A model generated the notes under the pieces. That model made no database searches, was not told the DNA's origin, and saw nothing but the letters and a program-made list of their open reading frames with translations. 64,000 bases of DNA from Candidatus Thalassarchaeaceae archaeon. Its GTDB lineage: Archaea; Thermoplasmatota; Poseidoniia; Poseidoniales; Thalassarchaeaceae. The translations under genes and the position numbers were made by a program. Below are positions 32,698 through 48,783 of this stretch, piece after piece (the stretch's first letter is position 1; each line of letters begins with the position of its first letter). The stretch covers positions 319,468 through 383,467 of the forward strand of contig JBJLBO010000005.1 in the NCBI GenBank assembly GCA_045568115.1, in the 5' to 3' direction.

Positions 32698-35631
32698 TTA
32701 ATCTCGGCGGGAAATTAAACCTGCACCAATCAAACAAATCATTGCAAGGAATCCACCAAAACCAGGTAATGATACAGGTCCTGCTGTTGAATCATCAGTA
32801 TATTGTCCAGCCCATGTGTCATAAATAGCCACATAGAATCCCATGGAATCATCCACAGAAAGAGTATCTCCGGAAGATATCATGCCATCCATATCTACGT
32901 CTTCGAAGGTGAATGGTATGTCACAACCCATTGTGCAACCAACTTCGGCTGGTGCGCTCGCTATTCCAGATTCCAAGGTCCCACTGGCCACCAAAGAGCA
33001 GTCATCCAGTGAATCGACTTCGTTGCAGTTCAGGAACCTTATCTCGAAGTCCGATATTGGTGCAGCAAAGGTCAAGCCATCAGCAATAGTTCCGAATACT
33101 GGCCCTCCTTCATTTTCATCTCCGCCGCCATCTTCAGACTCGTCAGAGCCATCACCGCAGTCGTCATAGCCATCGTCAACATAGTCCATTGGAATCACAT
33201 TGCCGTTGTCGCAGTAGAATGGGTCATCGCCATCATCGTTGTTGATTTCATCCCACATTTCAGTGAACTCGTAGATGTCGAGACCGTCGCTGTCATCGTA
33301 GTCGTACATGTCCATCATGTAAACGAGATTATTGAAGTCCTCTTCTTCGATAATGTCACCAGTAGAGTTGGCGAAGTCAGCCCACTCAGAGGGAGTGATC
33401 TGCCCGTCACCGTCAGTGTTCATCCATTCGAAGGCTTCGTCGGCAGAATAATCGTCACCATCGCCTTCGTCATCGTCGTCATCCTCAACACAGGTAGTAA
33501 ATTCATCGAGATTGAGCAAGTCGTCCCCATCGGTATCACACCAGGAAAACCAGTTGGCCAATTCCTCCTCGTCGATCTCATCATCCGAATCGTCTCCTCC
33601 CTCGTTGCTGAAATCAATGATGTCTTGGAGGCTCACATAGCCGTCGTCGTCCGTGTCCATCCAGCCGAACATCTGCTCTGGATCCTCATCACCCTCATCA
33701 GGCGCCATGTCCACAATGCCATCGATGAAGCACTGCATCTCGTCGATGTCGATTAGGTCGTTTTCGTCATAGTCGCAATCATCGAACAGTATTGTGACCT
33801 CGTCGTAATCGAGTTCGAAGTTTTCTGGATCAGATTCCCAAGCGTCCTGGAACTCCTGGTAGCTCATGTAGCCGTCATCATTGGTATCTACGTCATCCAT
33901 GGCCTCCTCTGGTGAAGGAGCGCCGTCTTCGTCTGGATCTGGGCCGTTAATCACTGGCGGGAGGGTGTCGAGATATGAGGTTCCGTCGGAGGAATTCTCG
34001 TATCCCTCATTCTGCCCATAGTCGTCAGTGCAATGCCAGTCTGAGTCATGGTGCTCACAGTAATACCACCAAGTTTCCCAATAATCATCATCCTGAGAAT
34101 TCTTGCACCACCAAACTGTCTCGTCAGCCCCGTCCTCGTCGTTGCCTTCCCATTCGCAGTAGCCGTCATAGTAAGATTGCCAAGAGACGTCGTTTTCATC
34201 GTCGCCTTCGTCATCGTCGTCATTTTCGTCCTCATATTCGATTAGCATATCAATAAAATACTGAAGCTCGTCTATTCCTAGGAGACTGTTTCCGTCATCA
34301 TCTGAAGCATCGAAGATTTCTTGAAGGTCTGATATTTCTTCATCAGACTCATCACCCTCAGAGTAAGAGTTCCAGAATTCATCCCAACTGAGATGATCGT
34401 CTCCATCCATATCGAACCATTGCAAAACTTCCTCAGGGCTCGGATCGTCGCCTTCACCTTCTTCTTCGAAGATTGAAACGAATAACACTATCTCATCATA
34501 GTTCAGATAGCCGTCCTCATTTTCATCAGAAGTATCGAATTGCGACTGAAACATTGTTCTCATGCCATCAGATTCCCAACCCTCGTTGTAAGTGAAGTAA
34601 TCATCAATTTCCGACCAAGTAAGTTGATCATCTCCATTTTGATCCATGACATAAAGTAATTCATCAGCAGTCGGACCGTCGTCGCCTTCACCTTCTTCTT
34701 CGTCATCTTCTTCTTCAAATGGATCGAAATCATTGAGACCTTCAAAAATAACTGGAGTCGCCGATTTTGGTAAAGTATCATCTACCTCAATCACAACTGC
34801 ATCTCCCCACATGACCGTGTGGATAATAGTGGAATCATTGGTTCCGTCAACAGAAGTCATTGTGTATGACATTAGATTACTGCTATCATCCAATACAATT
34901 GCCATTTCTGTTGAGGCACCTTCCTCAGTGTAGGTTGCAACCATCGATTGTGAATTTTCTGAAGAGTCGTAACTGAAGCTAGCCTCTAGATCTTCTGGCA
35001 TATCATCCATGACATCGGATTCGGTGTCTTCATCATCCATCATATCATCCATCGTCATCAATGACATGAATGAGTCAGCAACCAGCGATTCAACCAAATC
35101 CATCACAGTTCCCTCAACATCTCTAGTTTGTGCTGAGTAAGACTGTGCGCCTCCAGCATCTGCTGCCATCATTCCAGATACGCTGTTATGTACATTGACA
35201 ACCTGACCCACCTGAATGACCTGATTATCGATAGAAATCATAGGACCCATGCTCAAAACGGTCCTAACCATAGCAGAGTTGTTAGCCAAATCAACCATTA
35301 CATGCTCTTCAATATGTAATCCCTCTAGAGCGATCATCTCACCTTCTCCTCCACTAGAGTTAGTGTACATTACAGTAGAGTAACCGGCACGTGTATTCAG
35401 TTCGAGCATTTCATCAATGTCCATCTGATTGTCCATGGTGTGTATGAAAGTCTCCATAGTGGCTATGAAGAAACAGTCTCCTAGGGCCTCAAGTGTGGCA
35501 TTTTCATCGTAGTTAGCAGCATTTTCATCCATACATCCTAGGATGTCTTCTACTGTATCTCCACTAAGGCAACCGGAGGCAGAAGTAGTGATCATAATCA
35601 GGCTTGTAATAAGAACAAGAGTTCTACTCAT
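32698..35631 (-). CDS. Extremely acidic secreted cell-surface protein with about 10 canonical EF-hand Ca2+-binding loops, a lipobox-like signal and a PGF-CTERM anchor
   Basis: The signal with Cys is LITSLIMITTSASGCLSGD. The EF loops are DQNGDDQLTWSE, DENEDGYLNYDE, DMDGDDHLSWDE, DDDGNSLLGIDE, DTNDDGYMSYQE, DTDDDGYVSLQD, DTDGDDLLNLDE, NTDGDGQITPSE and others. The C-terminus is SLPGFGGFLAMICLIGAGLISRRD. Confidence 0.6.
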   Translation of the reverse strand: MSRTLVLITSLIMITTSASGCLSGDTVEDILGCMDENAANYDENATLEALGDCFFIATMETFIHTMDNQMDIDEMLELNTRAGYSTVMYTNSSGGEGEMIALEGLHIEEHVMVDLANNSAMVRTVLSMGPMISIDNQVIQVGQVVNVHNSVSGMMAADAGGAQSYSAQTRDVEGTVMDLVESLVADSFMSLMTMDDMMDDEDTESDVMDDMPEDLEASFSYDSSENSQSMVATYTEEGASTEMAIVLDDSSNLMSYTMTSVDGTNDSTIIHTVMWGDAVVIEVDDTLPKSATPVIFEGLNDFDPFEEEDDEEEGEGDDGPTADELLYVMDQNGDDQLTWSEIDDYFTYNEGWESDGMRTMFQSQFDTSDENEDGYLNYDEIVLFVSIFEEEGEGDDPSPEEVLQWFDMDGDDHLSWDEFWNSYSEGDESDEEISDLQEIFDASDDDGNSLLGIDELQYFIDMLIEYEDENDDDDEGDDENDVSWQSYYDGYCEWEGNDEDGADETVWWCKNSQDDDYWETWWYYCEHHDSDWHCTDDYGQNEGYENSSDGTSYLDTLPPVINGPDPDEDGAPSPEEAMDDVDTNDDGYMSYQEFQDAWESDPENFELDYDEVTILFDDCDYDENDLIDIDEMQCFIDGIVDMAPDEGDEDPEQMFGWMDTDDDGYVSLQDIIDFSNEGGDDSDDEIDEEELANWFSWCDTDGDDLLNLDEFTTCVEDDDDDEGDGDDYSADEAFEWMNTDGDGQITPSEWADFANSTGDIIEEEDFNNLVYMMDMYDYDDSDGLDIYEFTEMWDEINNDDGDDPFYCDNGNVIPMDYVDDGYDDCGDGSDESEDGGGDENEGGPVFGTIADGLTFAAPISDFEIRFLNCNEVDSLDDCSLVASGTLESGIASAPAEVGCTMGCDIPFTFEDVDMDGMISSGDTLSVDDSMGFYVAIYDTWAGQYTDDSTAGPVSLPGFGGFLAMICLIGAGLISRRD

Positions 35632-37020: not shown

Positions 37021-39021
37021 ATGGCGCACCGCAGTGTACTGCAGATAGCCGTTCTTCTAGCCATGTTTGCAATGGTAACTTCATGGGTCCCTATGAGTGC
37101 TCCAAGTAAGGAACTCACAGTTGATATTGAAGCCCGAGAACAATTTGGAGGAGATGGACCTACTCTTGAAGAACAATGCAGTTCGATAACCTTTGAAGAC
37201 ATGTTTGATTATTCAAATGCGATTTTTGAAATTGAAGTCGCATCTGATTGGAAATCTGCTGATGTTCACGCGGTAGCATGGGTAAATGGCACACTTGCAG
37301 ATGTTGTCAGAACAAATCTTGATACCTTTGTTGCAGAAGTATATCCTAGTGGGGATGACGGATGGATGTCCACCGATGAAAGAGAAGGAGTTCGTGCTAT
37401 TGCCTCAGAGTGTGTTGAGCATACACTAACACGAATTGGGATGAGAGATGGAGGTCCACACCGAGGTGGTGAAGGAACAGACTGGAAGAATATCTCTTGG
37501 ACTGAGGATGAAGTTTTGGTCGAAGAATGGAATCTTGTTCCTGAAGATCACTCTGAAATTCGCTCTTGTTCAGGATTTGGGAGTAGTAATGACTGTGTTG
37601 AGGTCCCAGTAGTCCCTGATTCAAACAGAGACTGTGACACAAATATAGATGAATCAGTAGGATTAGATGAATGCAGATTAATGCTCTGGCTTAATGCGAC
37701 CTTGACAATAAATAACATAAATTCACCTGATGAATTTACTCTTGTTTTCAATGCATCAAACATGTCTAATGCTATCTACAATTTTCATTTCCCATACACG
37801 GAAGGACTTCGTCTCGACATGTGGGATGAATGCGAAGGACGTAACGTTGAGAGCGATGATGGTAATACAGTAGAGACTCCACAACGAGGAACTTGTTTAG
37901 GCGATGGTTCAAGTTCGTATCAATTGGTAGAAGAATTAGATGGTAGCCTAACCTATATCATTGAACCAAACATGCCTATTTGGCCAATTGGAGAAGATCT
38001 TTTTGCCGACTTCACCACTGCACCTATACCAATAGACAACCCGCCTGAATGGACGGAATTGGCACCAGAGGATAATTCATGGTTCCCAAAAAGTAGCGGC
38101 GGGCAACAAGTAATCGCAGAATGGATAGAAATTCAGAACTGGTTTTCTGATGAGGCTGCTCTTTCTTCTTTGATTATCGATTGCAGAGGAGATGCTGGAC
38201 TAAATGTCCAAATTGAAAGTCGAGATTTGTCAATGGATGTTCCTCGTGGAGAAGCAGGAGAAATAACATGTGAGGCAACTGATGAAGCAGGACAGTCTTC
38301 AGGTAATAGAACTTGGAGCGTGGGAGTACCATTTCAAATTTCAACAACTTCCACAGAACTTTCAGACCCTCATCCAATTACTATTAGCCCAACTTCGGGT
38401 TGGCCAGAATTAAGTGTATTAATTGGATTCAGTTCCGAATATGGAGAGAAAGACGATTCTTCAGGTCCTTTTTCACTATATGTCTCTGAAATCACTGCCG
38501 AGGTTGCGTCTTCAACAATAGTCCCTGGCCCTGCATATGTTTGGGTAGAAGTTTCTGGAAATGGCGTTTTTAGTATGGAAGAGTTCTATGATTTTGGAAT
38601 AATCAAAACTGGTTCACCCCCTTCTCTTGTAATTAACTCAGAAGGATGGAATGGAAACTCGTGGTCAATGAATGGACAATTCAGTGATCCCGACGGAGAA
38701 TATGTGACTTTCACCCAATTAATTGATGGCGCCGCAGCTGGAGAAATAACAGTAAATGGAAACTCATGGGCTACTCCTCAGATTGACTTCTCAGTCTGGT
38801 CAGAAGGATCATACACAATAGTGGTAAAGGGATGTGATGAATCAAATCTTTGTGATGAAGTTCAACATATTGTAGACAATACTCACCTATTTGACGAAAC
38901 TAATCCCATCATCGAAGAGCCTGATGACAAGGACTCTGGTTTCTCACTTCCTGCAATTGGGCTACCTGGACTGATAATTGCTTTATCTGCCGCACTCATA
39001 TACTCGGGCCGACGCGACTAG
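37021..39021 (+). CDS. Secreted surface protein (666 aa) with a PGF-CTERM-like (PGL) anchor
   Basis: The signal peptide is MAHRSVLQIAVLLAMFAMVTSWVPMSAPS. The C-terminus is LPAIGLPGLIIALSAALIYSGRRD. Confidence 0.55.
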   Translation: MAHRSVLQIAVLLAMFAMVTSWVPMSAPSKELTVDIEAREQFGGDGPTLEEQCSSITFEDMFDYSNAIFEIEVASDWKSADVHAVAWVNGTLADVVRTNLDTFVAEVYPSGDDGWMSTDEREGVRAIASECVEHTLTRIGMRDGGPHRGGEGTDWKNISWTEDEVLVEEWNLVPEDHSEIRSCSGFGSSNDCVEVPVVPDSNRDCDTNIDESVGLDECRLMLWLNATLTINNINSPDEFTLVFNASNMSNAIYNFHFPYTEGLRLDMWDECEGRNVESDDGNTVETPQRGTCLGDGSSSYQLVEELDGSLTYIIEPNMPIWPIGEDLFADFTTAPIPIDNPPEWTELAPEDNSWFPKSSGGQQVIAEWIEIQNWFSDEAALSSLIIDCRGDAGLNVQIESRDLSMDVPRGEAGEITCEATDEAGQSSGNRTWSVGVPFQISTTSTELSDPHPITISPTSGWPELSVLIGFSSEYGEKDDSSGPFSLYVSEITAEVASSTIVPGPAYVWVEVSGNGVFSMEEFYDFGIIKTGSPPSLVINSEGWNGNSWSMNGQFSDPDGEYVTFTQLIDGAAAGEITVNGNSWATPQIDFSVWSEGSYTIVVKGCDESNLCDEVQHIVDNTHLFDETNPIIEEPDDKDSGFSLPAIGLPGLIIALSAALIYSGRRD

Positions 39022-39024
39022 GTC

Positions 39025-39915
39025 ATGAGCTTCAGTGGGAACGTAGAGAGTGAGTCTCACGAAGGTGGGCTTCTCGTTGCTTTTGAGGGTCGTGCACCAC
39101 GACTAGGAGCAACCATTCGAGTAATTGGTGGAAAGTCCTTAGGTCGTGTAAACACGGTAATAGGTGCGGTAGATAGAGCCTTAATTCACATTCACCCATT
39201 AGCTGAAGATGTCAATACATCTAGTGCAATTGGTTCACCTGTTGAGATTGCACCTCGAGAGAGACGCAGTCGAGACAGGGACCGAGGGCGCTTTGATCGG
39301 CGTGACAATCGTCGAGGTAGAGATGGGGGTCGAGGAAATTACGATAGAAGTGGCAATAGAGACAGGCGCGGACAAGATCGAGGCAGAGATAACAGAGATG
39401 GAAACCGTGGAGGTGACTGGACCTGCCCAAAGTGCAAGAATTCAAACTTTGCTTTTAGAAATCAATGTAATCGCTGTGAAGCTGAGAAACCTAGCGGGGG
39501 CAGAGGAAATGACTCAAATCACCAAAGAGGTAGAGGTGACAGGAATAGAGGAGAACGAAGCGATGGAAATCGCGGTGGAGATTGGACTTGTCCAAAATGC
39601 AAGAACTCAAACTTTGCATTCAGAAATAAATGCAATCGCTGTGAAGCCGAGAAACCTAGTGGAGGCGGGAAAAGCAACAGAGATAGGCAGGATAGAAGAA
39701 ACAGGCCTCCTAGAAAACAATCACGAGAAGGTGATCGAAGAGGCCCTAGAGGCGGAGAACGCAGAGGATTTAGAGATGGAGATTCTAGACAAGGCGGAAA
39801 CTCAAGAGGTAGGAGTCCAGGTAGTGCAAATAAACCTCGAAGAGGTGGTTTCCGTGGGCCAACAGGTGGCGGAAATCGCCGAAACAGACCTGGTCGCAGT
39901 AGTGGAAGAAGGTAA
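39025..39915 (+). CDS. Gar1-like small RNA-binding barrel fused to RG/RGG-rich low-complexity tails containing two RanBP2-type zinc fingers
   Basis: The N-terminal 80 aa (GRAPRLGATIRVIGGKSLGRVNTVIGAVDRALIHIHP) follow the Gar1 core pattern G.V..V.G.V.....I.P. Two copies of WTCPKCKNSNFAFRN[QK]CNRCEAEKP match the RanBP2 ZnF consensus W-x-C-x2-C-x3-N-x6-C-x2-C. The remainder is RGG/RD-rich. Confidence 0.6.
   Translation: MSFSGNVESESHEGGLLVAFEGRAPRLGATIRVIGGKSLGRVNTVIGAVDRALIHIHPLAEDVNTSSAIGSPVEIAPRERRSRDRDRGRFDRRDNRRGRDGGRGNYDRSGNRDRRGQDRGRDNRDGNRGGDWTCPKCKNSNFAFRNQCNRCEAEKPSGGRGNDSNHQRGRGDRNRGERSDGNRGGDWTCPKCKNSNFAFRNKCNRCEAEKPSGGGKSNRDRQDRRNRPPRKQSREGDRRGPRGGERRGFRDGDSRQGGNSRGRSPGSANKPRRGGFRGPTGGGNRRNRPGRSSGRR
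39412..39665 (+). repeat. Intragenic duplication of two ~89-bp units (39412-39500 and 39576-39665, about 85% identical), each encoding a RanBP2-type zinc finger
   Basis: Seen by direct comparison of ggtgactggacctgcccaaagtgcaagaattcaaactttgc... with ggagattggacttgtccaaaatgcaagaactcaaactttgc... Confidence 0.6.
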
Positions 39916-39986
39916 TTTCAATTTCTATATTGAATAATTAACTGAAGATTAGCCACCCGAGCATTCATCTTAACAACACCTGAGCA

Positions 39987-41045
39987 ATGGTCATGGCGAA
40001 GAGCGCGGAGAAGCTTTGGGCTGATGCGCTTGAACAAGAAAAAGTTGGTGAACTAGAGGATGCAAAATCTCTAGCACATGAAATAACTAAGATAGATCGA
40101 GATCATTCAGATGCTTGGTTCATGATTTCACGACTTTCACTGCCTCCTGTCAGACGAGGAAAAACAGAAGAACCAAGCCTTGCACAAGCTGCTACTGCAC
40201 TTTCTGCATTACGACATGTTGTCAGAATCGATTCTGAACGTACAGACGCGTGGATATTGGGTGGAGCATTACTTGTCGACCATTTAGGGATGATGGAGGA
40301 GTCTCTTGAATGGTGGGAAATGAGGAGAAAAGTAGTACCAAAGGAGGTTACACCTCTAGTTGAACAGATCGGTGTTCTCATCAGATTAGGAAATTATGAA
40401 GAAGCTGGAGAATTATTAGAGACCCTATTCAGTCCTGAAATGGAGGACCCCGATAATCGTCAATTATTCAGGATGGATTCAGTAAGGAAAATGGTCGCTA
40501 ATGCGTCAAGTATGGAAAAGGATGAAGTTTTCAGACCACAGAACCCCAAACACAAGAGATGGGAAATTATTGATCGAATGAAAACAAGGAAACCACTATC
40601 TGAAACATTCTTCCTCTTGACTTTTGTAGCACCAATTGTTTTCTTACTCGGAACTTTCTCTATGACATTACTTGGCAATTCTAAATGGGGATTACTAATT
40701 GTTTTCCTAATCATCCTATTCTTGTTTTGGGGTATCAGTAGATTATCCTCAGGATTATTACAGAAACTGAATCGGCACTCGATGGATCTTGAAAGAGCCC
40801 TAGATGTTGAAGCAAGTTCAGGAAAACTGTGTATTCCTGATGAAATAAGAGGAAGTAAACTTTACAATTCAATCTTAGAAAAACGTACAAGAGCCTTTCA
40901 GGAGAGAATTGGTAAAATTGTTGAAATTGATGAAAGAATCAATCAGAAATGGACGCCGAATTTACCAAATTGGAAACAACAAGATTCGGACTGGTGGGTC
41001 GAAGATGAGGAAGAATCAGTCGAATTAGATGCCATCGAAGATTGA
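39987..41045 (+). CDS. Hypothetical protein (352 aa) with an N-terminal helical (TPR-like) region and two central TM helices
   Basis: ORF only. The TM segments are FFLLTFVAPIVFLLGTFSMTLLG and LLIVFLIILFLFWGISRL. Confidence 0.4.
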   Translation: MVMAKSAEKLWADALEQEKVGELEDAKSLAHEITKIDRDHSDAWFMISRLSLPPVRRGKTEEPSLAQAATALSALRHVVRIDSERTDAWILGGALLVDHLGMMEESLEWWEMRRKVVPKEVTPLVEQIGVLIRLGNYEEAGELLETLFSPEMEDPDNRQLFRMDSVRKMVANASSMEKDEVFRPQNPKHKRWEIIDRMKTRKPLSETFFLLTFVAPIVFLLGTFSMTLLGNSKWGLLIVFLIILFLFWGISRLSSGLLQKLNRHSMDLERALDVEASSGKLCIPDEIRGSKLYNSILEKRTRAFQERIGKIVEIDERINQKWTPNLPNWKQQDSDWWVEDEEESVELDAIED

Positions 41046-42387: not shown

Positions 42388-45300
42388 TCAACTTCCGCCG
42401 CCTTTACCTTGTTGGGCATAATAAGAAGCATAGTACTGCTCAGCATACTGTCTAGCATCTGCTTCGGCATATCCTTGGCCAACCATCTGCTGTACATATG
42501 CTTCTACAGGGTCCATCTGTTGAACGCCACCGAACTGTTCAACACTATCTTCAACATCGTCTTTACCTCGTGATCTGAAAATCAAAGTAACTGCAACAAT
42601 TCCTACAATCAGGATTGCCCCCCCTGCAACATATACAATAGTCATACCAAATCCACTGGATGATTCACAACCTGGTGCAGATGAATCTAATTCGCAGGGG
42701 TCATCTGATCTTGGAAGTAAATATATCTTGAAGTCATAATCAAGTTGGTATCTCTCACCATCTCCTTCAACAACACGCCAGTATACTGTTGTGTTCTCTC
42801 CATTCGTAGTGTATAAATCCGCTATATTCAGAGTCAATACAAACGATTGACCATCAATAAGAGGAGACATGCCACCTAAATCCGTAGAATTGTACTTGCC
42901 AAGAGAGTGTTGATTGGCTTTAATCGTTGGAGAACTATCGAATATATTTGGATCCAAGGCCACTTCAATTGTCAAGCCATATTCAGCACCTGAAACAACA
43001 GACCCTGAGACAGAAACCAAATCTTGACTTTGAGAATCTGTAGATTTAGGAGAAGTCAATCGCACATCAGGTGGTGCATCTCCGAAATCCTCACCAACTA
43101 CTTGAATTTGGATTTCAGCAGTATTGGAAGATTTCTTTCCAGCTCTATCCAAAACCTGCAATTCAACAATAATTTCATGCGGGTTGTTGTTTCCTATATT
43201 AGTCAGATTTCGGAAAACGTAAGACCATATATCGCCTCCAGCTGCACTAGAAATTTCAAATTCGTGAAGAAGATCTGATGGGATGGCCTCATTAGCAGGA
43301 TAATCATAGTATATATTATACCTATAATATTCAATTCCAGATTGCCCTTGTGGTGCATCTTCATCGAATGATCCTGATGCATCAAACTCCAAACTAATAT
43401 CACCAGTATCCTTCAATCGAACTTGATAAATTGGTATATCGCCATCCATTTCAAGAAGAGTAACGTACTCATCAGTAATAGAATTTTGAACCAAAGCAAT
43501 ATTGGCAGTAGGGTAATAATCATCGGCTAAATCATCATTGGTTTCTAAAACAATTGATGCAATTCTTGTATGACCTTCTTCATCGTGTAGATATAGCGTC
43601 AAGAGCCATTCCGCACCAACAAGACAACCTGTTTGGGAACCAGAATCACCAACGCAAAATGACCCAGGGGTAGGGATGCTTGGAGTGTCTTGTTGAATAT
43701 GGCTAATTTCACCATAATCAATAATCTCGCCATTCCATCCTGTAACTGAATTATTCACTAAGTTTGGAGTTAGAGTCCAATCCGCTGTTAGGACATCTGC
43801 AAGTTCAGGATTATCCGTGATAAAGTTGAATGATAAATCTGCATTCGATTTAATGTAAAATCTTTCATATCCAAATCCATTATTAGCTTCGGTAGGTTGC
43901 TCATCATTTATCTCTAATGTGAAACCATCCCCTCTAATTCCGAATGATGATGGATAAGGTGTTACTTGATAGGACAACATGTTAGAAAGCAGAGGCATTG
44001 AGGTCCCACCATATGGTTGAGACACAGAAGGATTCTCTACATCAATAGTTGTGATTATCATTCCACCTTGCCCTATGCCACATATTGAGAGAAGAGATTG
44101 AGAACTTTCGGATTGACTTCTCAATAAAGTATGGAATGTTCCTTCCGACTGCCTAGCAATCTTGCCTCCACAAATTGTTGGAATCTGCGTATCCTGAGTT
44201 TGTGCTGTATTAAGACCAGCTAATGCAACGTATGAACCTCCATGTATTCCTGCGAATGTATTCGTATCAACATCTTTCATCAATGGATGGAAGGCATCAA
44301 TAATAGTCAAATCATCAAATGTCACAGTGTTGTTGGTGTTACGCATTTTAACATCCAAATCGTGGATAATATTCTCATCATAGGCGGTTCTATATGGACC
44401 AAGGTGCATCTGCACAGTACCACCGAAAGTCATGTAACTCTCCAGTACATCATTTACTGAAATTCCAGACTCTCGTGTCTCAGAAAGGGATTGGTAATAT
44501 TCCCCATATTCGACATTGTAATCGGTTTGCCATGGAAGTAGAATCTTGTCATAATGACTCATCCAATCGGGAGTTGCATAACGATCCCAATCATCTACAG
44601 TATACTGTGTGTAGGTCATCCCCATTGACTCAAGGTCACTCTTAACTCGCTGGAGACGCTTTTGATCTGTTGGGTTAGACAAAATTGCAACATCAATATT
44701 GTCAACAAAATCAATTTCAAAGAAACGGTCGTTTCCTGAACGATTCCCATCTTCTACCATTGTAGCGAAGAAACTTATGTTGTATCTCGTATCACTTTGC
44801 CAACCACCCCAGGGGCTACTCCAATTAGCTTGATCTCTTTGATGAGGATCTAAATCGAAAGGACTGTTATCTGCAGTTTCATTGTAGACCATCTGACCAG
44901 TCGCCAAATTGACTATCTTCATGGATAGCTCATATTCTCCTCCAATAACTCCATTGAGCAGTGGGACAGAGAAACTATGTTCAGAAGAATCATCGATAGC
45001 ATAAACACAATTGTATGTAATATCTGAAACACAATCTAGAACATCGGGCTGCATTAAGGTGATATCTGCACTAGCAATACTGAATATGATTTGAGTGTGA
45101 TTATTAGCAGAAGTTATTTCACTCATATTGTACCAAGCAGTTCCTGTAATATTAGAGTCTAATATCGTTGTCGCATCTATCCTATAGATTCCTGAACGGA
45201 AATTATGTGAAGCCACATTAACAGTAGTTTTCTCTAACGCATCAAGGCCCGTTACATTGTTCATGTAAGTTCCATCATCCTCAAAAGTAAACTCATCAAT

Positions 45301-48300
45301 ACGAATATTATCTATTGCAAAACCTGCTAGTCCTGCGTTGCCATTGACACCGTCATCATTAGACTCGAAAATCCATGTCAGAGTAACATCAGAACCTGAA
45401 ACATCGGTACATTCAGTGTTCCAATTAAAAGTATCATCTGAAGTGGTGTTTAGTAGGGTAATATGATTAAAGTCAAGAATAACTGATTTTACAAGATCCT
45501 CCGAATCAAACCAAAGTATTGAATCAAATTTGTCGGAAAGGTCACCAAAATATTCTACCTCTTCATAACTGCCATCTAAATCAAAGTCTTCACATTCATG
45601 GAATGGTCTAATGCCATTCTCATTCAAATCAGTCCAACTACCCCAGACATTTCCTGTGAATTCTTCACCGTTCTTTGTCCAATTAATCACAAGACCTGCG
45701 GCATCTTGAGGGGAGAAGAAGCGATCATTGTCAGTAATATAGTCGCCTTCAGCAAAATAATCAAAGGTTAGGTATGTGAAATCATCACCTTCCGCTGAGA
45801 CTTCAATTGGCCCAACTGAAAGCCACTCAGACCAATTATCACCATATCCTGTGTCAGGATGACCTAACCAATATGCTTCACTGTTGAAAACTCCTCTGGA
45901 CTGAGGAAGCATCGGATGAACACCATTTGAATCATCGATTACAGAACCATTCTCATTCTCATCATCATACCAAATTGGGTCTTCAAAGCCAGAGAAATCC
46001 TCGTAAGCCTTTAGATCAGGAATAGCGTTTTGGATTTTAGTCTTTAGTTGGAAATCCGTTAGAGTATTACCGAAGTTCTGAACAATAATTTCAATATCTC
46101 TTTCGCCGGATGCATACTTAAGTCCATTTTCCAGACTGACCCATGGCTCTTCAGCAACACCTGGGTCAAAGAGATTCTTTACAGTAAGTTGGAATTTTAC
46201 TTCATCATTGGTTGCATCAGCATTATCATAACCGCTAGGGTTGTTAAGGTCTGTTTTTATGTAATATGTTTTATTATCAATAAAATCAGCAGTTAGCGAA
46301 ACTTCCTCAATAGCTCCTGCAGCCATGTTATTGAAGGTAAGTGGCTGGCTAACCATCTCGGCTGGACCAAAAATTACGTCTGTCTTGTAAATCGAGATAT
46401 TATCAAAGGCAAATCCATCAAATCCTCCTCCTTGTGACGATCCTTCTGGACCTACGCTACCCATTAAGCCACTACGGAATCTGAATCTAATATCTATTAT
46501 TTCACCTGCATACGGCGTTAAATCAATCTCATAATCTCCACTATAGTTTGTCCATGGTGTAATTGTCCAATCATTGAAATTTCCATTATAAGTGTTATAC
46601 TCTGGATCAACTCCGAGACCAAGTATTCGTAAGTAACGCTCATCATCCCATCCTCCTGTGAAAAACAATTGTTCCCAACCATTCCCATCACTCCAGACAT
46701 CAATACCACACGAGTCTTCATACAGCCATCTCTCAACAACTGAATACTGCTCTGCAAGATACAATTCAAAGAACGAAGTACTACAAAATAGATCTATGTC
46801 TAAATGTGCCGCATCTGAATTTGTTAAATCTACATTCTCAATAATATATGCTTCATCCATGTTATTGTAATATCCAGAATCATTATCATTTCCTTGATAA
46901 TCAGATCCAGCCCACATGTAAGTTGTAGGATTAAAATCAGCCTCCCAAATGTCATCTGTTGCTGAACCATTTTCATCAACAGAGGCATTCCATTCCTCAT
47001 GCCAAGAAGAAGAACCCTGTCCATATTCACCTGTATATGAATTCAAAGCGATAGAACAGGAAGAACAATTTGTATCATCAATATTACCTTCAAAATCATT
47101 AGAATATACTAATGTATCAATTCCGTCAAGAACTTCTTTAACTTCAAGATTAACATCGATAGAACCACTAATTGGATTTAATCCCGTATTTTTGACTGTG
47201 ACATTTACGAACCGTGTACCTTCGCCAATCTTTGCTTGGCCGGTAGCTGGATCATATGCAGCAGGCGCTATAGTCACATCTGTTATTCCAACGTCTTCGT
47301 TATCTAATGAAAGGACAGATAGGAAGTCTCCTGCGCCAGCCCAACCTTGAGTATCTAGCCACATAGCGCTATTAGCAAACCTATAGGCTCTGTCTCTTTG
47401 TCCAATTACGATTTCGTAAGCACTATCTTCGCCACCAGCCAATTGACCAGGGACTGCCATCGTTGGTCGACGGCCTACATCGAATGACAGAGAAGATAAG
47501 TATCCAGTCCCTGAAGGATTAGCAAGGATAATCTCAACCGAGTTTATTTCACGTAGGTTATCTAAGAGAAGATATGTTTGATTCTGGGCGGTTGAGTCCT
47601 GAAGTCGAGTGAGAGTAAGTTCGGTCGGTACAAAGAAATCGTAATGTCCGTCCCTATTTACATCTGATATAGTTAGTGAAGCCCCTTTAAAATCACCCAA
47701 ATGCACATAATTCTGCGTATTCCAATTATTTCCAGACCTTGTCGCATATGAAATATTACCAGTTAGACCATCCACGTGTGCAATTAAGTCAATTTCACCA
47801 TTATTATCAGTATCTGCAATATCAATTCCATCAATTGGATCATTTTGTTCTGTGTCAAGCTGGAAATTATGTACAGCATTAGAAGTAGCATCAAGTGGAT
47901 TTGGATAAGTCCCTAGTGTACAATCATACTCAAGAACGGTCATATTATCGTAGTGCCCAGACGCAAATCCAATTGCAGCGTTAAAAGGAGGAGTCCTAAG
48001 TAACCAAATATCAAGATCCTCACAGTCACCTACGCCACCAGGAATTCCTCCCCCTACTACTGTTTCGCCCCAATTACCGAAGAAGACATTCGTGTATAGC
48101 CCATTAGTTAATGGAACAGGAATGGTTTGTTGATTGGTAATTTCAGATGGATCTGGACCTTTGAAGATCATCAGGAAATTGTTTGTGAACCCTCTGTCAA
48201 TGACGCTCATAACAATGTCTGCATCACCATCTCCATCTATGTCACCAACATCCATATCTTGCAGATAGGGGTTATCGACTGTAATTGGATTTGATGACGC

Positions 48301-48783
48301 CCACTGATTAACACGCTGATTGCAATCTCCCCAGAGAACTGTCAAATTCCCAGGAATATGTGGGCCACCCACAAATCGAATATTTTGTTGATAGTAAATC
48401 AAATCATTAGTTCCATCGCCATTGACATCATCAATGAAAACTTTGATCCCATCAGCAGTACCCTCAAATCCAGCACGATATGATTCATTATTTGAGATAA
48501 AAACGTCTTGCCTGTCCCCAAAGCCTCCATTTCCATCATTATACAGTGCACTAATGAAGTGACCCATGGAACTCGCTGCAGCAATATCATTGTCCCCATC
48601 ACAGTCAAGATCACCTATTGTAATGAAGGACGGATCTCTCTGTACAGCATACTGAGTAATGTGTGAAGCAGATGCTGCTGGTACCAGAGAAAGCATTGGC
48701 GAGCTCAGCATTAACATGACGAGCAGAATAGATAATCTTCCTTCTCGAGAAGTTCTTGAAGCGTTCTTTGCGGTGGACATCAT
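42388..48783 (-). CDS. Giant (2131 aa) secreted FG-GAP/VCBS-repeat surface protein with a C-terminal TM helix and a ~60-aa cytoplasmic tail
   Basis: It has a signal peptide and FG-GAP repeats (GDLDCDGDNDIAAAS, DVNGDGTNDLIY, DIDGDGDADIVMS, DVNRDGHYDFFV). The C-terminal TM is TIVYVAGGAILIVGIVAVTLIF, followed by a Q/Y-rich tail. Confidence 0.7.
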   Translation of the reverse strand: MMSTAKNASRTSREGRLSILLVMLMLSSPMLSLVPAASASHITQYAVQRDPSFITIGDLDCDGDNDIAAASSMGHFISALYNDGNGGFGDRQDVFISNNESYRAGFEGTADGIKVFIDDVNGDGTNDLIYYQQNIRFVGGPHIPGNLTVLWGDCNQRVNQWASSNPITVDNPYLQDMDVGDIDGDGDADIVMSVIDRGFTNNFLMIFKGPDPSEITNQQTIPVPLTNGLYTNVFFGNWGETVVGGGIPGGVGDCEDLDIWLLRTPPFNAAIGFASGHYDNMTVLEYDCTLGTYPNPLDATSNAVHNFQLDTEQNDPIDGIDIADTDNNGEIDLIAHVDGLTGNISYATRSGNNWNTQNYVHLGDFKGASLTISDVNRDGHYDFFVPTELTLTRLQDSTAQNQTYLLLDNLREINSVEIILANPSGTGYLSSLSFDVGRRPTMAVPGQLAGGEDSAYEIVIGQRDRAYRFANSAMWLDTQGWAGAGDFLSVLSLDNEDVGITDVTIAPAAYDPATGQAKIGEGTRFVNVTVKNTGLNPISGSIDVNLEVKEVLDGIDTLVYSNDFEGNIDDTNCSSCSIALNSYTGEYGQGSSSWHEEWNASVDENGSATDDIWEADFNPTTYMWAGSDYQGNDNDSGYYNNMDEAYIIENVDLTNSDAAHLDIDLFCSTSFFELYLAEQYSVVERWLYEDSCGIDVWSDGNGWEQLFFTGGWDDERYLRILGLGVDPEYNTYNGNFNDWTITPWTNYSGDYEIDLTPYAGEIIDIRFRFRSGLMGSVGPEGSSQGGGFDGFAFDNISIYKTDVIFGPAEMVSQPLTFNNMAAGAIEEVSLTADFIDNKTYYIKTDLNNPSGYDNADATNDEVKFQLTVKNLFDPGVAEEPWVSLENGLKYASGERDIEIIVQNFGNTLTDFQLKTKIQNAIPDLKAYEDFSGFEDPIWYDDENENGSVIDDSNGVHPMLPQSRGVFNSEAYWLGHPDTGYGDNWSEWLSVGPIEVSAEGDDFTYLTFDYFAEGDYITDNDRFFSPQDAAGLVINWTKNGEEFTGNVWGSWTDLNENGIRPFHECEDFDLDGSYEEVEYFGDLSDKFDSILWFDSEDLVKSVILDFNHITLLNTTSDDTFNWNTECTDVSGSDVTLTWIFESNDDGVNGNAGLAGFAIDNIRIDEFTFEDDGTYMNNVTGLDALEKTTVNVASHNFRSGIYRIDATTILDSNITGTAWYNMSEITSANNHTQIIFSIASADITLMQPDVLDCVSDITYNCVYAIDDSSEHSFSVPLLNGVIGGEYELSMKIVNLATGQMVYNETADNSPFDLDPHQRDQANWSSPWGGWQSDTRYNISFFATMVEDGNRSGNDRFFEIDFVDNIDVAILSNPTDQKRLQRVKSDLESMGMTYTQYTVDDWDRYATPDWMSHYDKILLPWQTDYNVEYGEYYQSLSETRESGISVNDVLESYMTFGGTVQMHLGPYRTAYDENIIHDLDVKMRNTNNTVTFDDLTIIDAFHPLMKDVDTNTFAGIHGGSYVALAGLNTAQTQDTQIPTICGGKIARQSEGTFHTLLRSQSESSQSLLSICGIGQGGMIITTIDVENPSVSQPYGGTSMPLLSNMLSYQVTPYPSSFGIRGDGFTLEINDEQPTEANNGFGYERFYIKSNADLSFNFITDNPELADVLTADWTLTPNLVNNSVTGWNGEIIDYGEISHIQQDTPSIPTPGSFCVGDSGSQTGCLVGAEWLLTLYLHDEEGHTRIASIVLETNDDLADDYYPTANIALVQNSITDEYVTLLEMDGDIPIYQVRLKDTGDISLEFDASGSFDEDAPQGQSGIEYYRYNIYYDYPANEAIPSDLLHEFEISSAAGGDIWSYVFRNLTNIGNNNPHEIIVELQVLDRAGKKSSNTAEIQIQVVGEDFGDAPPDVRLTSPKSTDSQSQDLVSVSGSVVSGAEYGLTIEVALDPNIFDSSPTIKANQHSLGKYNSTDLGGMSPLIDGQSFVLTLNIADLYTTNGENTTVYWRVVEGDGERYQLDYDFKIYLLPRSDDPCELDSSAPGCESSSGFGMTIVYVAGGAILIVGIVAVTLIFRSRGKDDVEDSVEQFGGVQQMDPVEAYVQQMVGQGYAEADARQYAEQYYASYYAQQGKGGGS

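What the first reader, a model, noticed from the sequence alone, without database searches (positions are those of the whole stretch)
39025..39915. Archaeal Gar1-like protein with eukaryote-type RanBP2 zinc fingers and RGG/RG-rich tails
The N-terminal 80 residues follow the Gar1 (H/ACA RNP) barrel pattern (GRVNTVIGAVDRALIHIHP; compare yeast Gar1 GKVDEILGPLNEVFFTIKC). Eukaryotic Gar1 is flanked by Gly/Arg-rich (GAR) domains, which archaeal Gar1 normally lacks. The C-terminal 200 aa here is RG/RGG/RD-rich and embeds two near-identical RanBP2-type zinc fingers (WTCPKCKNSNFAFRNQCNRCEAEKP). These match the eukaryotic ZnF_RBZ consensus and strongly resemble the FUS/EWS/TAF15 RGG-ZnF-RGG arrangement. 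The two fingers arose by an ~89-bp intragenic duplication. This domain combination is unusual for an archaeon and suggests an expanded, eukaryote-like RNA-binding module on an H/ACA component. The gene starts 3 bp after a PGF-anchored surface-protein gene.
Basis: partly seen in the sequence, partly recalled or inferred. Interest (0 to 1): 0.7.

Follow-up and report, generated by a model that had tools for sequence, protein, structure and literature searches.

The report
Archaeal Gar1 with FUS-like RNA-binding tail
This gene encodes the marine Group II archaeal version of Gar1, a subunit of the RNA-guided pseudouridine synthase, carrying a long disordered arginine/glycine-rich tail with two FUS-type RNA-binding zinc fingers; such tails are described in the literature as eukaryote-specific, yet this architecture is conserved across a whole abundant order of ocean archaea.

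Summary
ORF 39025-39915 (+) encodes a 296-aa protein.

- **Tail.** It is disordered and very basic (R 26%, G 19%, pI 11.7). It holds two RanBP2 zinc fingers (PF00641, E=1.7e-19) whose closest solved relative is the FUS finger.
- **Finger conservation.** The residues that contact GGU RNA in ZRANB2/FUS are nearly invariant across 224 fingers. The two fingers differ at 15 synonymous and only 2 non-synonymous codons.
- **Distribution.** Found in at least 109 species-level Poseidoniales genomes, with 0-4 fingers, 0-36 RGG repeats and conserved gene order.

Corrections: the repeat is 108 nt (84% identical), not ~89 bp, and the upstream protein does not match PGF-CTERM.

Not shown: Cbf5 binding, RNA binding, and whether this is the only Gar1 in the genome.

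I found no paper describing this architecture. It is a new variant of a known kind.

The parts
39025..39915 (+). Complete gene (296 codons plus stop): Gar1 domain, disordered R/G-rich linker, finger 1, linker, finger 2, disordered basic tail
   Evidence: ORF list and sequence. The 'MSFSG' start is conserved across homologues. The full-length AF2 model shows three folded islands in otherwise low-confidence sequence.
39025..39258 (+). Gar1 beta-barrel domain (residues 1-78)
39259..39411 (+). Disordered R/D/G/N-rich linker 1 (residues 79-129)
   Evidence: pLDDT below 50 for residues 86-129; composition.
39412..39492 (+). RanBP2-type zinc finger 1 (residues 130-156, GDWTCPKCKNSNFAFRNQCNRCEAEKP)
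   Evidence: PF00641. Matches the pattern W-x-C-x2-C-x3-N-x6-C-x2-C. pLDDT about 83.
39493..39576 (+). Disordered linker 2 (residues 157-184)
   Evidence: pLDDT below 50 for residues 158-184. Its length varies between close relatives: L001 has an expanded linker.
39577..39657 (+). RanBP2-type zinc finger 2 (residues 185-211, GDWTCPKCKNSNFAFRNKCNRCEAEKP)
   Evidence: PF00641 best stretch 185-212. Best PDB match is the FUS finger 6g99_B over residues 182-213, E=9.8e-8. pLDDT 85-88.
39658..39912 (+). Disordered basic RG-rich C-terminal tail (residues 212-296)
   Evidence: pLDDT below 50 for residues 213-296; composition.
39394..39501 (+). Copy 1 of the 108-nt in-frame direct repeat (36 codons: finger 1 plus flanks)
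   Evidence: the repeat finder family D1. The repeat starts in phase 0.
39559..39666 (+). Copy 2 of the 108-nt direct repeat, 84% identical to copy 1
   Evidence: 17 codons differ from copy 1: 15 synonymous and 2 non-synonymous.

Best explanation
This is the Gar1 subunit of the box H/ACA pseudouridylation RNP of a Thalassarchaeaceae (Marine Group IIb, order Poseidoniales) archaeon, and it has acquired a C-terminal accessory RNA-binding module.

**Core (shown to be a Gar1 domain; function inferred).** The N-terminal beta-barrel is inferred to do what Gar1 does elsewhere. It docks on the catalytic domain of Cbf5 and captures the thumb loop, which promotes correct substrate placement and product release.

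**Tail (architecture shown; function inferred).** The roughly 218-residue tail is a disordered polycationic R/G/D/N-rich chain carrying two ZRANB2/FUS-class RanBP2 zinc fingers. Each finger is inferred to clamp a short single-stranded G-rich element, GGU-like. An aromatic residue (F) would stack between two guanines, and R, N and D side chains would read the bases. The RG-rich chain is inferred to add non-specific RNA affinity.

**Consequence (inferred).** The module raises the local concentration of the RNP on its substrate or guide RNAs, for example nascent rRNA. This is the role proposed for the GAR/RGG domains of eukaryotic Gar1.

**Evolution (shown).** Finger number and RGG content have expanded and contracted by in-frame tandem duplication and loss within the order. 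The Gar1 core and the RNA-contact residues of the fingers stay under purifying selection.
For: **Gar1 identity**
- 11 of 12 diverse N-domains hit only Pfam Gar1, best E=6e-5.
- The family profile against PDB sequences returns Gar1 chains in 6 of 7 hits.
- A profile hmmsearch of 1.84 billion proteins reaches small (75-95 aa) proteins at E=3e-6 to 9e-4. Three of them pass Pfam's Gar1 cut-off.
- hhalign gives 99.1%, E=1.7e-18 over 80 columns.
- The nearest named canonical relatives are Thermoplasmata Gar1, the sister lineage. One of them hits the family directly by tblastn at 30-42% identity.

**Fingers**
- PF00641, E=1.7e-19. The FUS finger is the best solved match.
- Across 224 distinct fingers, the equivalents of the ZRANB2 RNA-contact residues are:
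  - D68: D in 223
  - N76: N in 216
  - N78: N in 223
  - W79: F in 186, Y in 38
  - R82: R in 178, K in 46
  - N86: N in 212
- The roles of W79, R81, R82 and N86 are taken from PMC11789483. The definition of the RNA-binding subclass, and its GGU/GGN specificity, is from PMC6384913.
- The two window fingers differ at 15 synonymous and 2 non-synonymous codons.

**Disorder**
- pLDDT is below 50 outside the three folded islands.

**Conservation**
- 109 species-level genomes, all Poseidoniales, with conserved gene order.

**Role of RGG domains in eukaryotic Gar1**
- PMC8096250.
Against: - No experiment or computation here shows binding to Cbf5 or to RNA.
- I could not check whether Poseidoniales genomes also carry a canonical short Gar1. 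In Thermoplasmata, gar1 sits directly upstream of tfb. This gene does not, and no tfb lies in the window or the fetched loci. Orthology therefore rests on sequence and structure similarity only.
- The R81-equivalent position is F, as in the FUS-like W, rather than R. Exact sequence specificity may therefore differ from GGU.
- 17 of 64 complete family members have no finger, so the fingers are dispensable for the core function.
- The window protein's tail has only 4 RGG and about 55% non-G/R residues, so it is not a canonical GAR domain.
Confidence: 0.72

Rival explanations
1. This is a Gar1-domain paralogue that does not act in the H/ACA RNP. It could be a Naf1-like assembly factor or a stand-alone RNA-binding or chaperone protein, with a separate canonical Gar1 elsewhere in the genome serving Cbf5.
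For: - The window protein fails the curated Gar1 cut-offs of Pfam and NCBIfam.
- It lacks the gar1-tfb linkage seen in Thermoplasmata.
- Single-copy status was not tested.
Against: - Structural similarity ranks archaeal Gar1 above eukaryotic Gar1 and above Naf1.
- The closest canonical sequences are Gar1 proteins of the sister lineage.
- No canonical Gar1 labelled Poseidoniales appeared among the 23 hits to the canonical profile. This is weak evidence, because the candidate set was small.
- The family is found across the order, and each of the 80 loci comes from a different genome record. That is the pattern expected of an essential housekeeping orthologue.
Confidence: 0.15
2. The fingers are protein-interaction modules, as in Ran-binding Nup153/RanBP2 fingers or ubiquitin-binding NZF fingers, rather than RNA binders. 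The basic tail would then be a generic solubility or charge feature.
For: - The RanBP2 fold is used for Ran and ubiquitin binding in many proteins. Nup153, TAB2/3 and TRABID fingers appear among the weaker PDB matches.
- No binding data exist for this protein.
Against: - The fingers satisfy the published criteria for the RNA-binding subclass: W-x-C-x2-4-C-x3-N-x6-C with an aromatic at the stacking position (PMC6384913).
- They keep the R82, N86 and D68 equivalents nearly invariant.
- The residues directly after the second Cys are K-N, not the T-F dipeptide of ubiquitin-binding NZF fingers. The NZF motif is from established knowledge and was not re-derived here.
- Archaea of this lineage have no Ran.
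- The fusion partner is a subunit of an RNA-modifying RNP.
Confidence: 0.07
3. The RG-rich, repeat-containing region is an assembly or gene-calling artefact of low-complexity, purine-rich DNA.
For: - The gene is 63.5% purine on the coding strand.
- A 242-aa ORF lies in an alternative frame at 39209-39937.
Against: - The same reading frame and domain order recur in independent assemblies from at least 109 species and in 403 protein clusters.
- The repeat copies differ mostly at synonymous sites in this frame, 15 against 2.
- The fingers score E=1.7e-19 against Pfam.
Confidence: 0.01

Closest known systems
Archaeal Gar1 (H/ACA RNP subunit; e.g. Pyrococcus furiosus Gar1, PDB 2EY4/2HVY/3HAY; Pfam PF04410)
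   Same: - Profile-profile homology of 99.1%.
- Shared G-[KR]-V-x-x-V-x-G motif region, visible in the alignment.
   Different: - Canonical archaeal Gar1 proteins are 74-95 aa with at most a short basic tail. This protein adds about 218 residues of disordered R/G-rich sequence with two zinc fingers.
- It carries a lineage-specific SHEGGLL motif.
- It scores below the curated family cut-offs.
- It is not next to tfb.
Eukaryotic Gar1 (yeast Gar1p / human GAR1, PDB 3U28, 7TRC)
   Same: - Some family members carry long, near-perfect RGG arrays. L061 has 36 RGG.
   Different: - Eukaryotic Gar1 has GAR domains at both ends and no zinc finger.
- Here the extension is C-terminal only and contains RanBP2 fingers.
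- The window protein's tail has only 4 RGG and about 55% non-G/R residues. Vertebrate GAR domains are generally below 20% non-G/R (PMC9957100).
FET family (FUS/EWS/TAF15) RGG-ZnF-RGG module
   Same: - The FUS finger is the best solved match: 6g99, E=9.8e-8.
- Same pattern N-F-[AS]-[FW]-R-N-x-C-N-x-C.
- Fingers are flanked by RG/RGG-rich disorder.
   Different: - No RRM and no SYGQ-rich low-complexity domain. Pfam finds only PF00641.
- Two tandem fingers here, and 0-4 across the family, against one in FET proteins.
- The first Cys pair is C-x2-C rather than C-x4-C.
- The fusion partner is Gar1.
ZRANB2 (ZNF265) tandem ssRNA-binding RanBP2 fingers
   Same: - Two tandem fingers separated by a flexible linker.
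- Conserved equivalents of D68, N76, N78, the aromatic at W79, R82 and N86 (PMC11789483).
   Different: - The stacking residue is F or Y rather than W.
- The R81 equivalent is usually F.
- ZRANB2 is a eukaryotic SR-like splicing factor. Here the fingers are attached to an RNA-modification subunit in an archaeon.

Membership tests
Gar1 (H/ACA RNP subunit, PF04410) | Gar1-type six-stranded beta-barrel fold | tested here: met
   - AF2 model pLDDT 92, pTM 0.81.
- Foldseek top 13 hits are all Gar1 chains, TM 0.65-0.77.
Gar1 (H/ACA RNP subunit, PF04410) | Statistically supported sequence homology to validated Gar1 proteins | tested here: met
   - hhalign gives 99.1%, E=1.7e-18.
- The family profile reaches proteins that pass Pfam's Gar1 cut-off at E=3.3e-6 in a library of 1.84 billion.
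- tblastn with an NCBI-named Thermoplasmata Gar1 gives E down to 7.5e-8 against family members, and E=7.7e-4 against the window.
- Caveat: the window protein alone is below the curated cut-offs, at 11.9 against 29.3 bits for Pfam and 16.4 against 139 bits for NCBIfam.
Gar1 (H/ACA RNP subunit, PF04410) | Binds the catalytic domain and thumb loop of Cbf5 within an H/ACA RNP | not testable with these tools
   No complex prediction or interaction assay is available, and the Poseidoniales Cbf5 was not retrieved.
Gar1 (H/ACA RNP subunit, PF04410) | Is the (sole) Gar1 orthologue of its genome | not tested
   - Only a 64-kb window and 6-kb flanks of related loci were available.
- No tfb locus was present where a second gar1 could be looked for.
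- No canonical Gar1 labelled Poseidoniales appeared among 23 hits. This is weak evidence.
RanBP2-type zinc finger (PF00641) | C4 zinc ribbon W-x-C-x2-4-C-x3-N-x6-C-x2-C scoring above the curated cut-off | tested here: met
   69.2 bits against a cut-off of 27, E=1.7e-19, two stretches. Both fingers match the pattern and are modelled as folded, pLDDT 83-88.
ssRNA-binding subclass of RanBP2 fingers (ZRANB2/FUS/EWS/RBM5 type) | Aromatic residue at the guanine-stacking position, plus conserved equivalents of D68, R82 and N86 | tested here: met
   - Window fingers read D-W-x-C-x2-C-x-N-x-N-F-A-F-R-N-x-C-N-x-C.
- Across 224 fingers the aromatic is present in 224, R or K in 224, N86 in 212 and D68 in 223.
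- Criteria are from PMC6384913 and PMC11789483.
ssRNA-binding subclass of RanBP2 fingers (ZRANB2/FUS/EWS/RBM5 type) | Binds single-stranded GGU/GGN RNA | not testable with these tools
   Needs EMSA, ITC, SELEX or RBNS on recombinant fingers.
Ubiquitin-binding NZF subclass of RanBP2 fingers | T-F dipeptide immediately after the second Cys, plus a hydrophobic residue later in the finger | tested here: not met
   The window fingers have K-N after C-P-K-C. The NZF motif is taken from established knowledge (Npl4/TAB2 NZF) and was not re-derived here.
Long GAR/RGG domain (as in eukaryotic Gar1, fibrillarin, nucleolin) | [quoted passage not shown] | tested here: not met
   - The window tail has 4 RGG and 17 RG, and R+G is 44.5%, so about 55% is non-G/R. 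It is GAR-like but not a canonical GAR domain.
- Other family members do reach the repeat numbers: L061 has 36 RGG, L077 has 29 and L074 has 24, with R+G up to 57-59%.
FET family (FUS/EWS/TAF15) | RRM plus an N-terminal SYGQ-rich domain accompanying the RGG-ZnF-RGG module | tested here: not met
   Pfam finds no RRM and no other domain. The N-terminus is a Gar1 barrel. The protein resembles the FET module but is not a FET family member.

The most novel reading that the evidence does not exclude
Poseidoniales have assembled, on an archaeal snoRNP-type protein, the same RGG-ZnF-RGG module that FET proteins and nucleolar GAR proteins use in eukaryotes. They did so either independently or by exchange with marine eukaryotes. 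In these cells the module could drive multivalent RNA-dependent clustering of H/ACA RNPs on nascent rRNA, a nucleolus-like condensate in an archaeon without a nucleus. A related reading is that the ssRNA-binding RanBP2 finger has an archaeal history outside Asgard lineages, which would change where this 'eukaryotic' domain is thought to have arisen.
Probability: 0.15. Interest if true: 0.85.

Novelty: new variant of a known kind. Interest (0 to 1): 0.6.

Why it matters
- **It contradicts a stated generalisation.** RGG/GAR extensions of Gar1 and fibrillarin are described as eukaryote-specific acquisitions linked to the nucleolus (PMC8096250, PMC9957100), and RanBP2 fingers are treated as essentially eukaryotic RNA- or protein-binding modules. 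Here an entire, globally abundant order of non-Asgard archaea carries both on its Gar1, under purifying selection.
- **It offers a natural comparative series.** Finger number runs from 0 to 4 and RGG number from 0 to 36. This could be used to ask what such tails do for an RNA-guided modification enzyme outside the context of a nucleus.
- **It makes an evolutionary question testable.** The module arose by convergence, by ancient inheritance or by transfer between eukaryotes and archaea, and these can now be distinguished.
- **It fixes an annotation gap.** NCBI calls these proteins 'hypothetical' or 'zinc finger protein', because the Gar1 models miss them.

Tried and rejected
1. **Single-sequence family scans.** Pfam Gar1 gave E=0.21 and NCBIfam gave E=0.008-0.08, all far below the cut-offs. 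These were insufficient alone, so I moved to profiles and structure.
2. **Top PDB profile hit.** The best hit was archaemetzincin 2x7m (E=0.026). I rejected it because the alignment is to the vector-derived 'SGLVPRGSH' tag region.
3. **Gene context as a clue to function.** The neighbours are GpsA, a secreted or anchored 666-aa protein, a TPR/membrane protein, SAH hydrolase, a giant surface protein and aconitase. None has a link to RNA modification. The order is conserved but uninformative for mechanism.
4. **Shared synteny with canonical gar1.** Thermoplasmata gar1 lies upstream of tfb. No tfb lies in the window or the loci, so neither orthology by synteny nor a hidden second copy could be tested.
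5. **Taxon names for canonical and intermediate relatives.** The listing of cluster members returned almost no names.
6. **Other finger or RGG proteins near the gene.** The scan of 80 loci plus the window gave only two extra ORFs. Both are frameshifted continuations of the same gene, in L003 and L021.
7. **PGF-CTERM for the upstream protein.** No hit.
8. **Literature.** Six searches found no description of the architecture.
9. **Alternative-frame ORF 39209-39937.** I rejected it as a by-product of purine-rich, low-complexity coding DNA.
10. **Tools left unused.** One homologue search, one fold search and the metagenome scan were not run. None could answer the open questions, which are copy number per genome and binding.
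Full report
**1. What is in the sequence**

ORF 39025-39915 on the + strand starts with ATG and encodes 296 residues. It begins 3 nt after the stop codon of a 666-aa ORF (37021-39021). A 352-aa ORF follows at 39987.

Pfam finds two RanBP2-type zinc fingers (PF00641, E=1.7e-19, 69.2 bits against a cut-off of 27). They lie at residues 130-156 and 185-211.

The region after residue 78 is 25.7% Arg, 18.8% Gly, 10.6% Asn and 9.2% Asp. Only 6.9% of its residues are hydrophobic, and its pI is 11.7. It contains 4 RGG and 17 RG.

A 108-nt in-frame direct repeat (39394-39501 and 39559-39666, 84% identical, 165 nt apart) encodes the two fingers with their flanks. Of its 36 codons, 17 differ, 15 synonymously and 2 non-synonymously. 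The duplication is therefore old, and both copies are kept by purifying selection.

**2. Is the N-terminus Gar1?**

On its own the window sequence is far below the curated thresholds:
- Pfam Gar1: 11.9 bits, E=0.21, cut-off 29.3.
- NCBIfam Gar1 equivalogs: 13-16 bits, cut-offs 107-139.

I therefore built a 12-sequence alignment of diverse N-domains from homologues (A1). The evidence from it is as follows.
- Eleven of the 12 hit Pfam Gar1 and nothing else of note, best E=6e-5.
- The profile against all PDB sequences returns seven hits. Six are Gar1 chains from Pyrococcus, yeast and a yeast snR30 snoRNP entry. The seventh aligns to an expression-tag sequence and was discarded.
- An exhaustive profile search of 1.84 billion representative proteins finds 130 hits. 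Beyond the family itself it reaches 75-95-aa proteins at E=3e-6 to 9e-4. Five of the six tested hit Pfam Gar1, three of them above the gathering cut-off.
- Profile-profile comparison of A1 with these six canonical proteins gives 99.1% probability, E=1.7e-18 over 80 columns.
- An AlphaFold2 model of residues 1-82 is confident (pLDDT 92, pTM 0.81). It shows a small six-stranded beta domain.
- The top 13 Foldseek hits are all Gar1 chains.
- An NCBI-named Thermoplasmata Gar1 hits the family directly by tblastn at 30-42% identity and E down to 7.5e-8. In the 64-kb window it hits only 39037-39234.

I regard the Gar1 domain assignment as settled.

**3. The fingers and the tail**

The best solved-structure sequence match is the FUS zinc finger (6g99, E=9.8e-8). 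ZNF265/ZRANB2 and Nup153 fingers follow.

The published definition of the RNA-binding subclass is W-x-C-x2-4-C-x3-N-x6-C with an aromatic at the stacking position. Members bind GGU or GGN (PMC6384913). In ZRANB2:
- W79 stacks between the two guanines.
- R81 contacts G1.
- R82 contacts G2.
- N86 contacts G2 and U3 (PMC11789483).

The window fingers read D-W-T-C-P-K-C-K-N-S-N-F-A-F-R-N-[QK]-C-N-R-C. They carry F at the W79 position, R at R82, N at N86 and D at D68, and the N-F-[AS]-aromatic-R-N core is as in FUS.

Across 224 distinct fingers from the family these positions are almost invariant:

| ZRANB2 position | Residue in family fingers |
|---|---|
| D68 | D in 223 |
| N76 | N in 216 |
| N78 | N in 223 |
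| W79 | F in 186, Y in 38 |
| R82 | R in 178, K in 46 |
| N86 | N in 212 |

The linkers, by contrast, vary freely in length and sequence.

The fingers lack the T-F dipeptide of ubiquitin-binding NZF fingers. That motif is established knowledge and was not re-derived here.

A full-length AF2 model shows three folded islands, at residues 1-85, 130-157 and 185-212 (block-mean pLDDT about 79-90). Everything else is below 50.

**4. Distribution and variation**

A protein search returns 403 clusters. All named ones come from Poseidoniales (Marine Group II) MAGs.
- NCBI calls them 'hypothetical' or 'zinc finger protein'.
- JGI's automatic names read 'rRNA processing protein Gar1/predicted nucleic-acid-binding Zn-ribbon protein'.

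A scan of one genome per GTDB species finds 109 confirmed loci. The 80 that were kept are all Poseidoniales, apart from two labelled as bacterial bins, which are probably mis-binned. L001, a Thalassarchaeaceae MAG, is 100% identical over the N-domain, so the window comes from a Marine Group IIb archaeon.

Among 64 complete proteins:

| Fingers | Proteins |
|---|---|
| 0 | 17 |
| 1 | 9 |
| 2 | 23 |
| 3 | 14 |
| 4 | 1 |

- Length runs from 148 to 468 aa.
- RGG count runs from 0 to 36.

Some members carry long, near-perfect (RGG[DN])n arrays (L061, L074, L077). Others have only a plain basic tail (L030 type). A sub-group uses a C-x2-C...C-x4-C finger variant, 'GDWxCPKCKNHNYANKxxCNRxxCxExKP', which accounts for 47 of the 224 fingers.

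Canonical relatives are 74-95 aa. The long tail is therefore a Poseidoniales elaboration as far as this sampling shows.

**5. Context**

Gene order is conserved across the order:

| Neighbour | Loci out of 80 |
|---|---|
| 666-aa upstream gene | 77 |
| TPR/membrane protein downstream | 62 |
| SAH hydrolase | 44 |
| Giant surface protein | 56 |

The upstream ORF stops 1-4 nt before the gar1 start in 51 of 59 measurable loci and overlaps it by 4 nt in 3.

None of the neighbours suggests a function in RNA modification. The upstream protein has no PGF-CTERM match.

In Thermoplasmata, canonical gar1 lies directly upstream of tfb. This gene does not. No tfb was available in the window or the loci, so I could not look there for a second copy.

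**6. Mechanism**

*Shown:*
- A Gar1 barrel.
- Two folded fingers of the ZRANB2/FUS class with conserved RNA-contact residues.
- A disordered polycationic tail.
- Order-wide conservation with modular gain and loss of fingers.

*Inferred:*
- The barrel docks on Cbf5 and handles the thumb loop as in Pyrococcus (PMC4551948).
- The fingers bind short G-rich single-stranded RNA.
- The RG-rich chain adds non-specific affinity.
- Together they tether the RNP to substrate or guide RNA, as proposed for the RGG domains of eukaryotic Gar1 (PMC8096250).

*Not shown:*
- Cbf5 binding.
- RNA binding.
- Single-copy status.

The main rival is a Gar1-fold paralogue with a different role (about 0.15). It is disfavoured by the ranking of structural and sequence neighbours and by the housekeeping-like distribution.

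**7. Comparison and novelty**

| Comparison | Outcome |
|---|---|
| Gar1 family | Member by fold and homology; divergent enough to escape curated models |
| RanBP2 ssRNA-binding subclass | Fingers are members by sequence criteria |
| Canonical GAR domain | Window tail does not meet the published description (PMC9957100); several orthologues do |
| FET family | Resembles the FET module but is not a member: no RRM, no SYGQ domain |

Reviews and primary papers state that the RGG domains distinguish eukaryotic Gar1 from 'its archaeal counterpart' (PMC8096250). They also state that fibrillarin's GAR domain occurs in eukaryotes but not in Archaea (PMC9957100).

Six full-text searches found no description of this architecture. 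That is absence from the searchable library, not proof of absence.

I rate it a new variant of a known kind.

**8. Verdict**

Interest is moderate to high (0.6). It overturns a stated generalisation and offers a tractable natural series for studying GAR and zinc-finger tails on an RNA-guided enzyme. The biochemical role remains inferred.

Noticed in passing
window 37021-39021 (+); also directly upstream of the match in 77 of 80 loci, e.g. L003 3989-5989: The 666-aa acidic protein has a signal-peptide-like N-terminus and a C-terminal hydrophobic helix, and has no Pfam or NCBIfam family. It sits immediately upstream of gar1 across the whole order. Its stop lies 1-4 nt before the gar1 start in 51 of 59 loci, and it overlaps the start by 4 nt in 3. 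Why a secreted or anchored protein is so tightly coupled to an RNP subunit is unexplained.
   Followed up: partly
window 39987-41045 (+): This 352-aa protein has weak TPR signals at the N-terminus and predicted membrane helices around residues 200-260. It is conserved directly downstream of gar1 in 62 of 80 loci. Its function is unknown.
   Followed up: partly
window 32698-35631 (-): A 977-aa protein carries several EF-hand pairs (PF13499, E=4e-22) and an LDL-receptor class A module (PF00057, E=2e-5). This is another set of domains more familiar from eukaryotes, encoded in this archaeal window.
   Followed up: no
window 42388-48783 (-): A giant 2131-aa ORF has a signal-like N-terminus and a C-terminal membrane helix followed by a Q/Y/A-rich cytoplasmic tail. 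It is conserved near gar1 in 56 of 80 loci.
   Followed up: no
window 39209-39937 (+), alternative frame: A 242-aa ORF rich in E, V, I and T overlaps the gar1 tail in another frame. It is most likely a by-product of the purine-rich (63.5%) low-complexity coding sequence and not a gene.
   Followed up: partly
C-termini of L061, L067, L074, L077, L080 and others (family proteins): The more divergent family members (38-53% identical to the window N-domain) end in a short conserved motif, [ND]-P-F-[KR]-[KR]-R. It occurs in 11 of 64 complete proteins. It is absent from the window protein, which ends ...GRSSGRR. It may be a short linear interaction motif.
   Followed up: no
L024, L048, L020, L017 (family proteins): A sub-group carries a finger variant with C-x4-C as the second Cys pair, Y at the stacking position and K at the R82 position: GDWxCPKCKNHNYANKxxCNRxxCxExKP. 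It accounts for 47 of 224 fingers. Its RNA specificity may differ from that of the FUS-like fingers.
   Followed up: partly
P0211 cluster (202 aa; on contigs up to 503 kb): A related Gar1-domain protein from a 'Euryarchaeota archaeon' carries a single divergent finger, TWVCQKCRSLNSRTSKCIGCG. It lacks the stacking aromatic residue, so it may be a degenerate or repurposed finger.
   Followed up: no
L081 6001-7180; L084 6001-7179: In Thermoplasmata, canonical gar1 lies directly upstream of tfb, overlapping it in L081 and 12 nt away in L084. Genes for tRNA-splicing endonuclease, a SpoU methylase and a TruA-type pseudouridine synthase are nearby. Poseidoniales gar1 has left this RNA-processing neighbourhood.
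   Followed up: partly
L047 and L049 (record titles): Two contigs carrying this archaeal gene, with Poseidoniales-type neighbours, are deposited as Gammaproteobacteria and Rhodobacteraceae MAGs. They are probably mis-binned contigs.
   Followed up: no
L003 around 6161 and L021 around 6628: In these two genomes the tail continues in a different reading frame. This suggests frameshift errors, or real frameshifts, in the repeat-rich tail of those assemblies.
   Followed up: no
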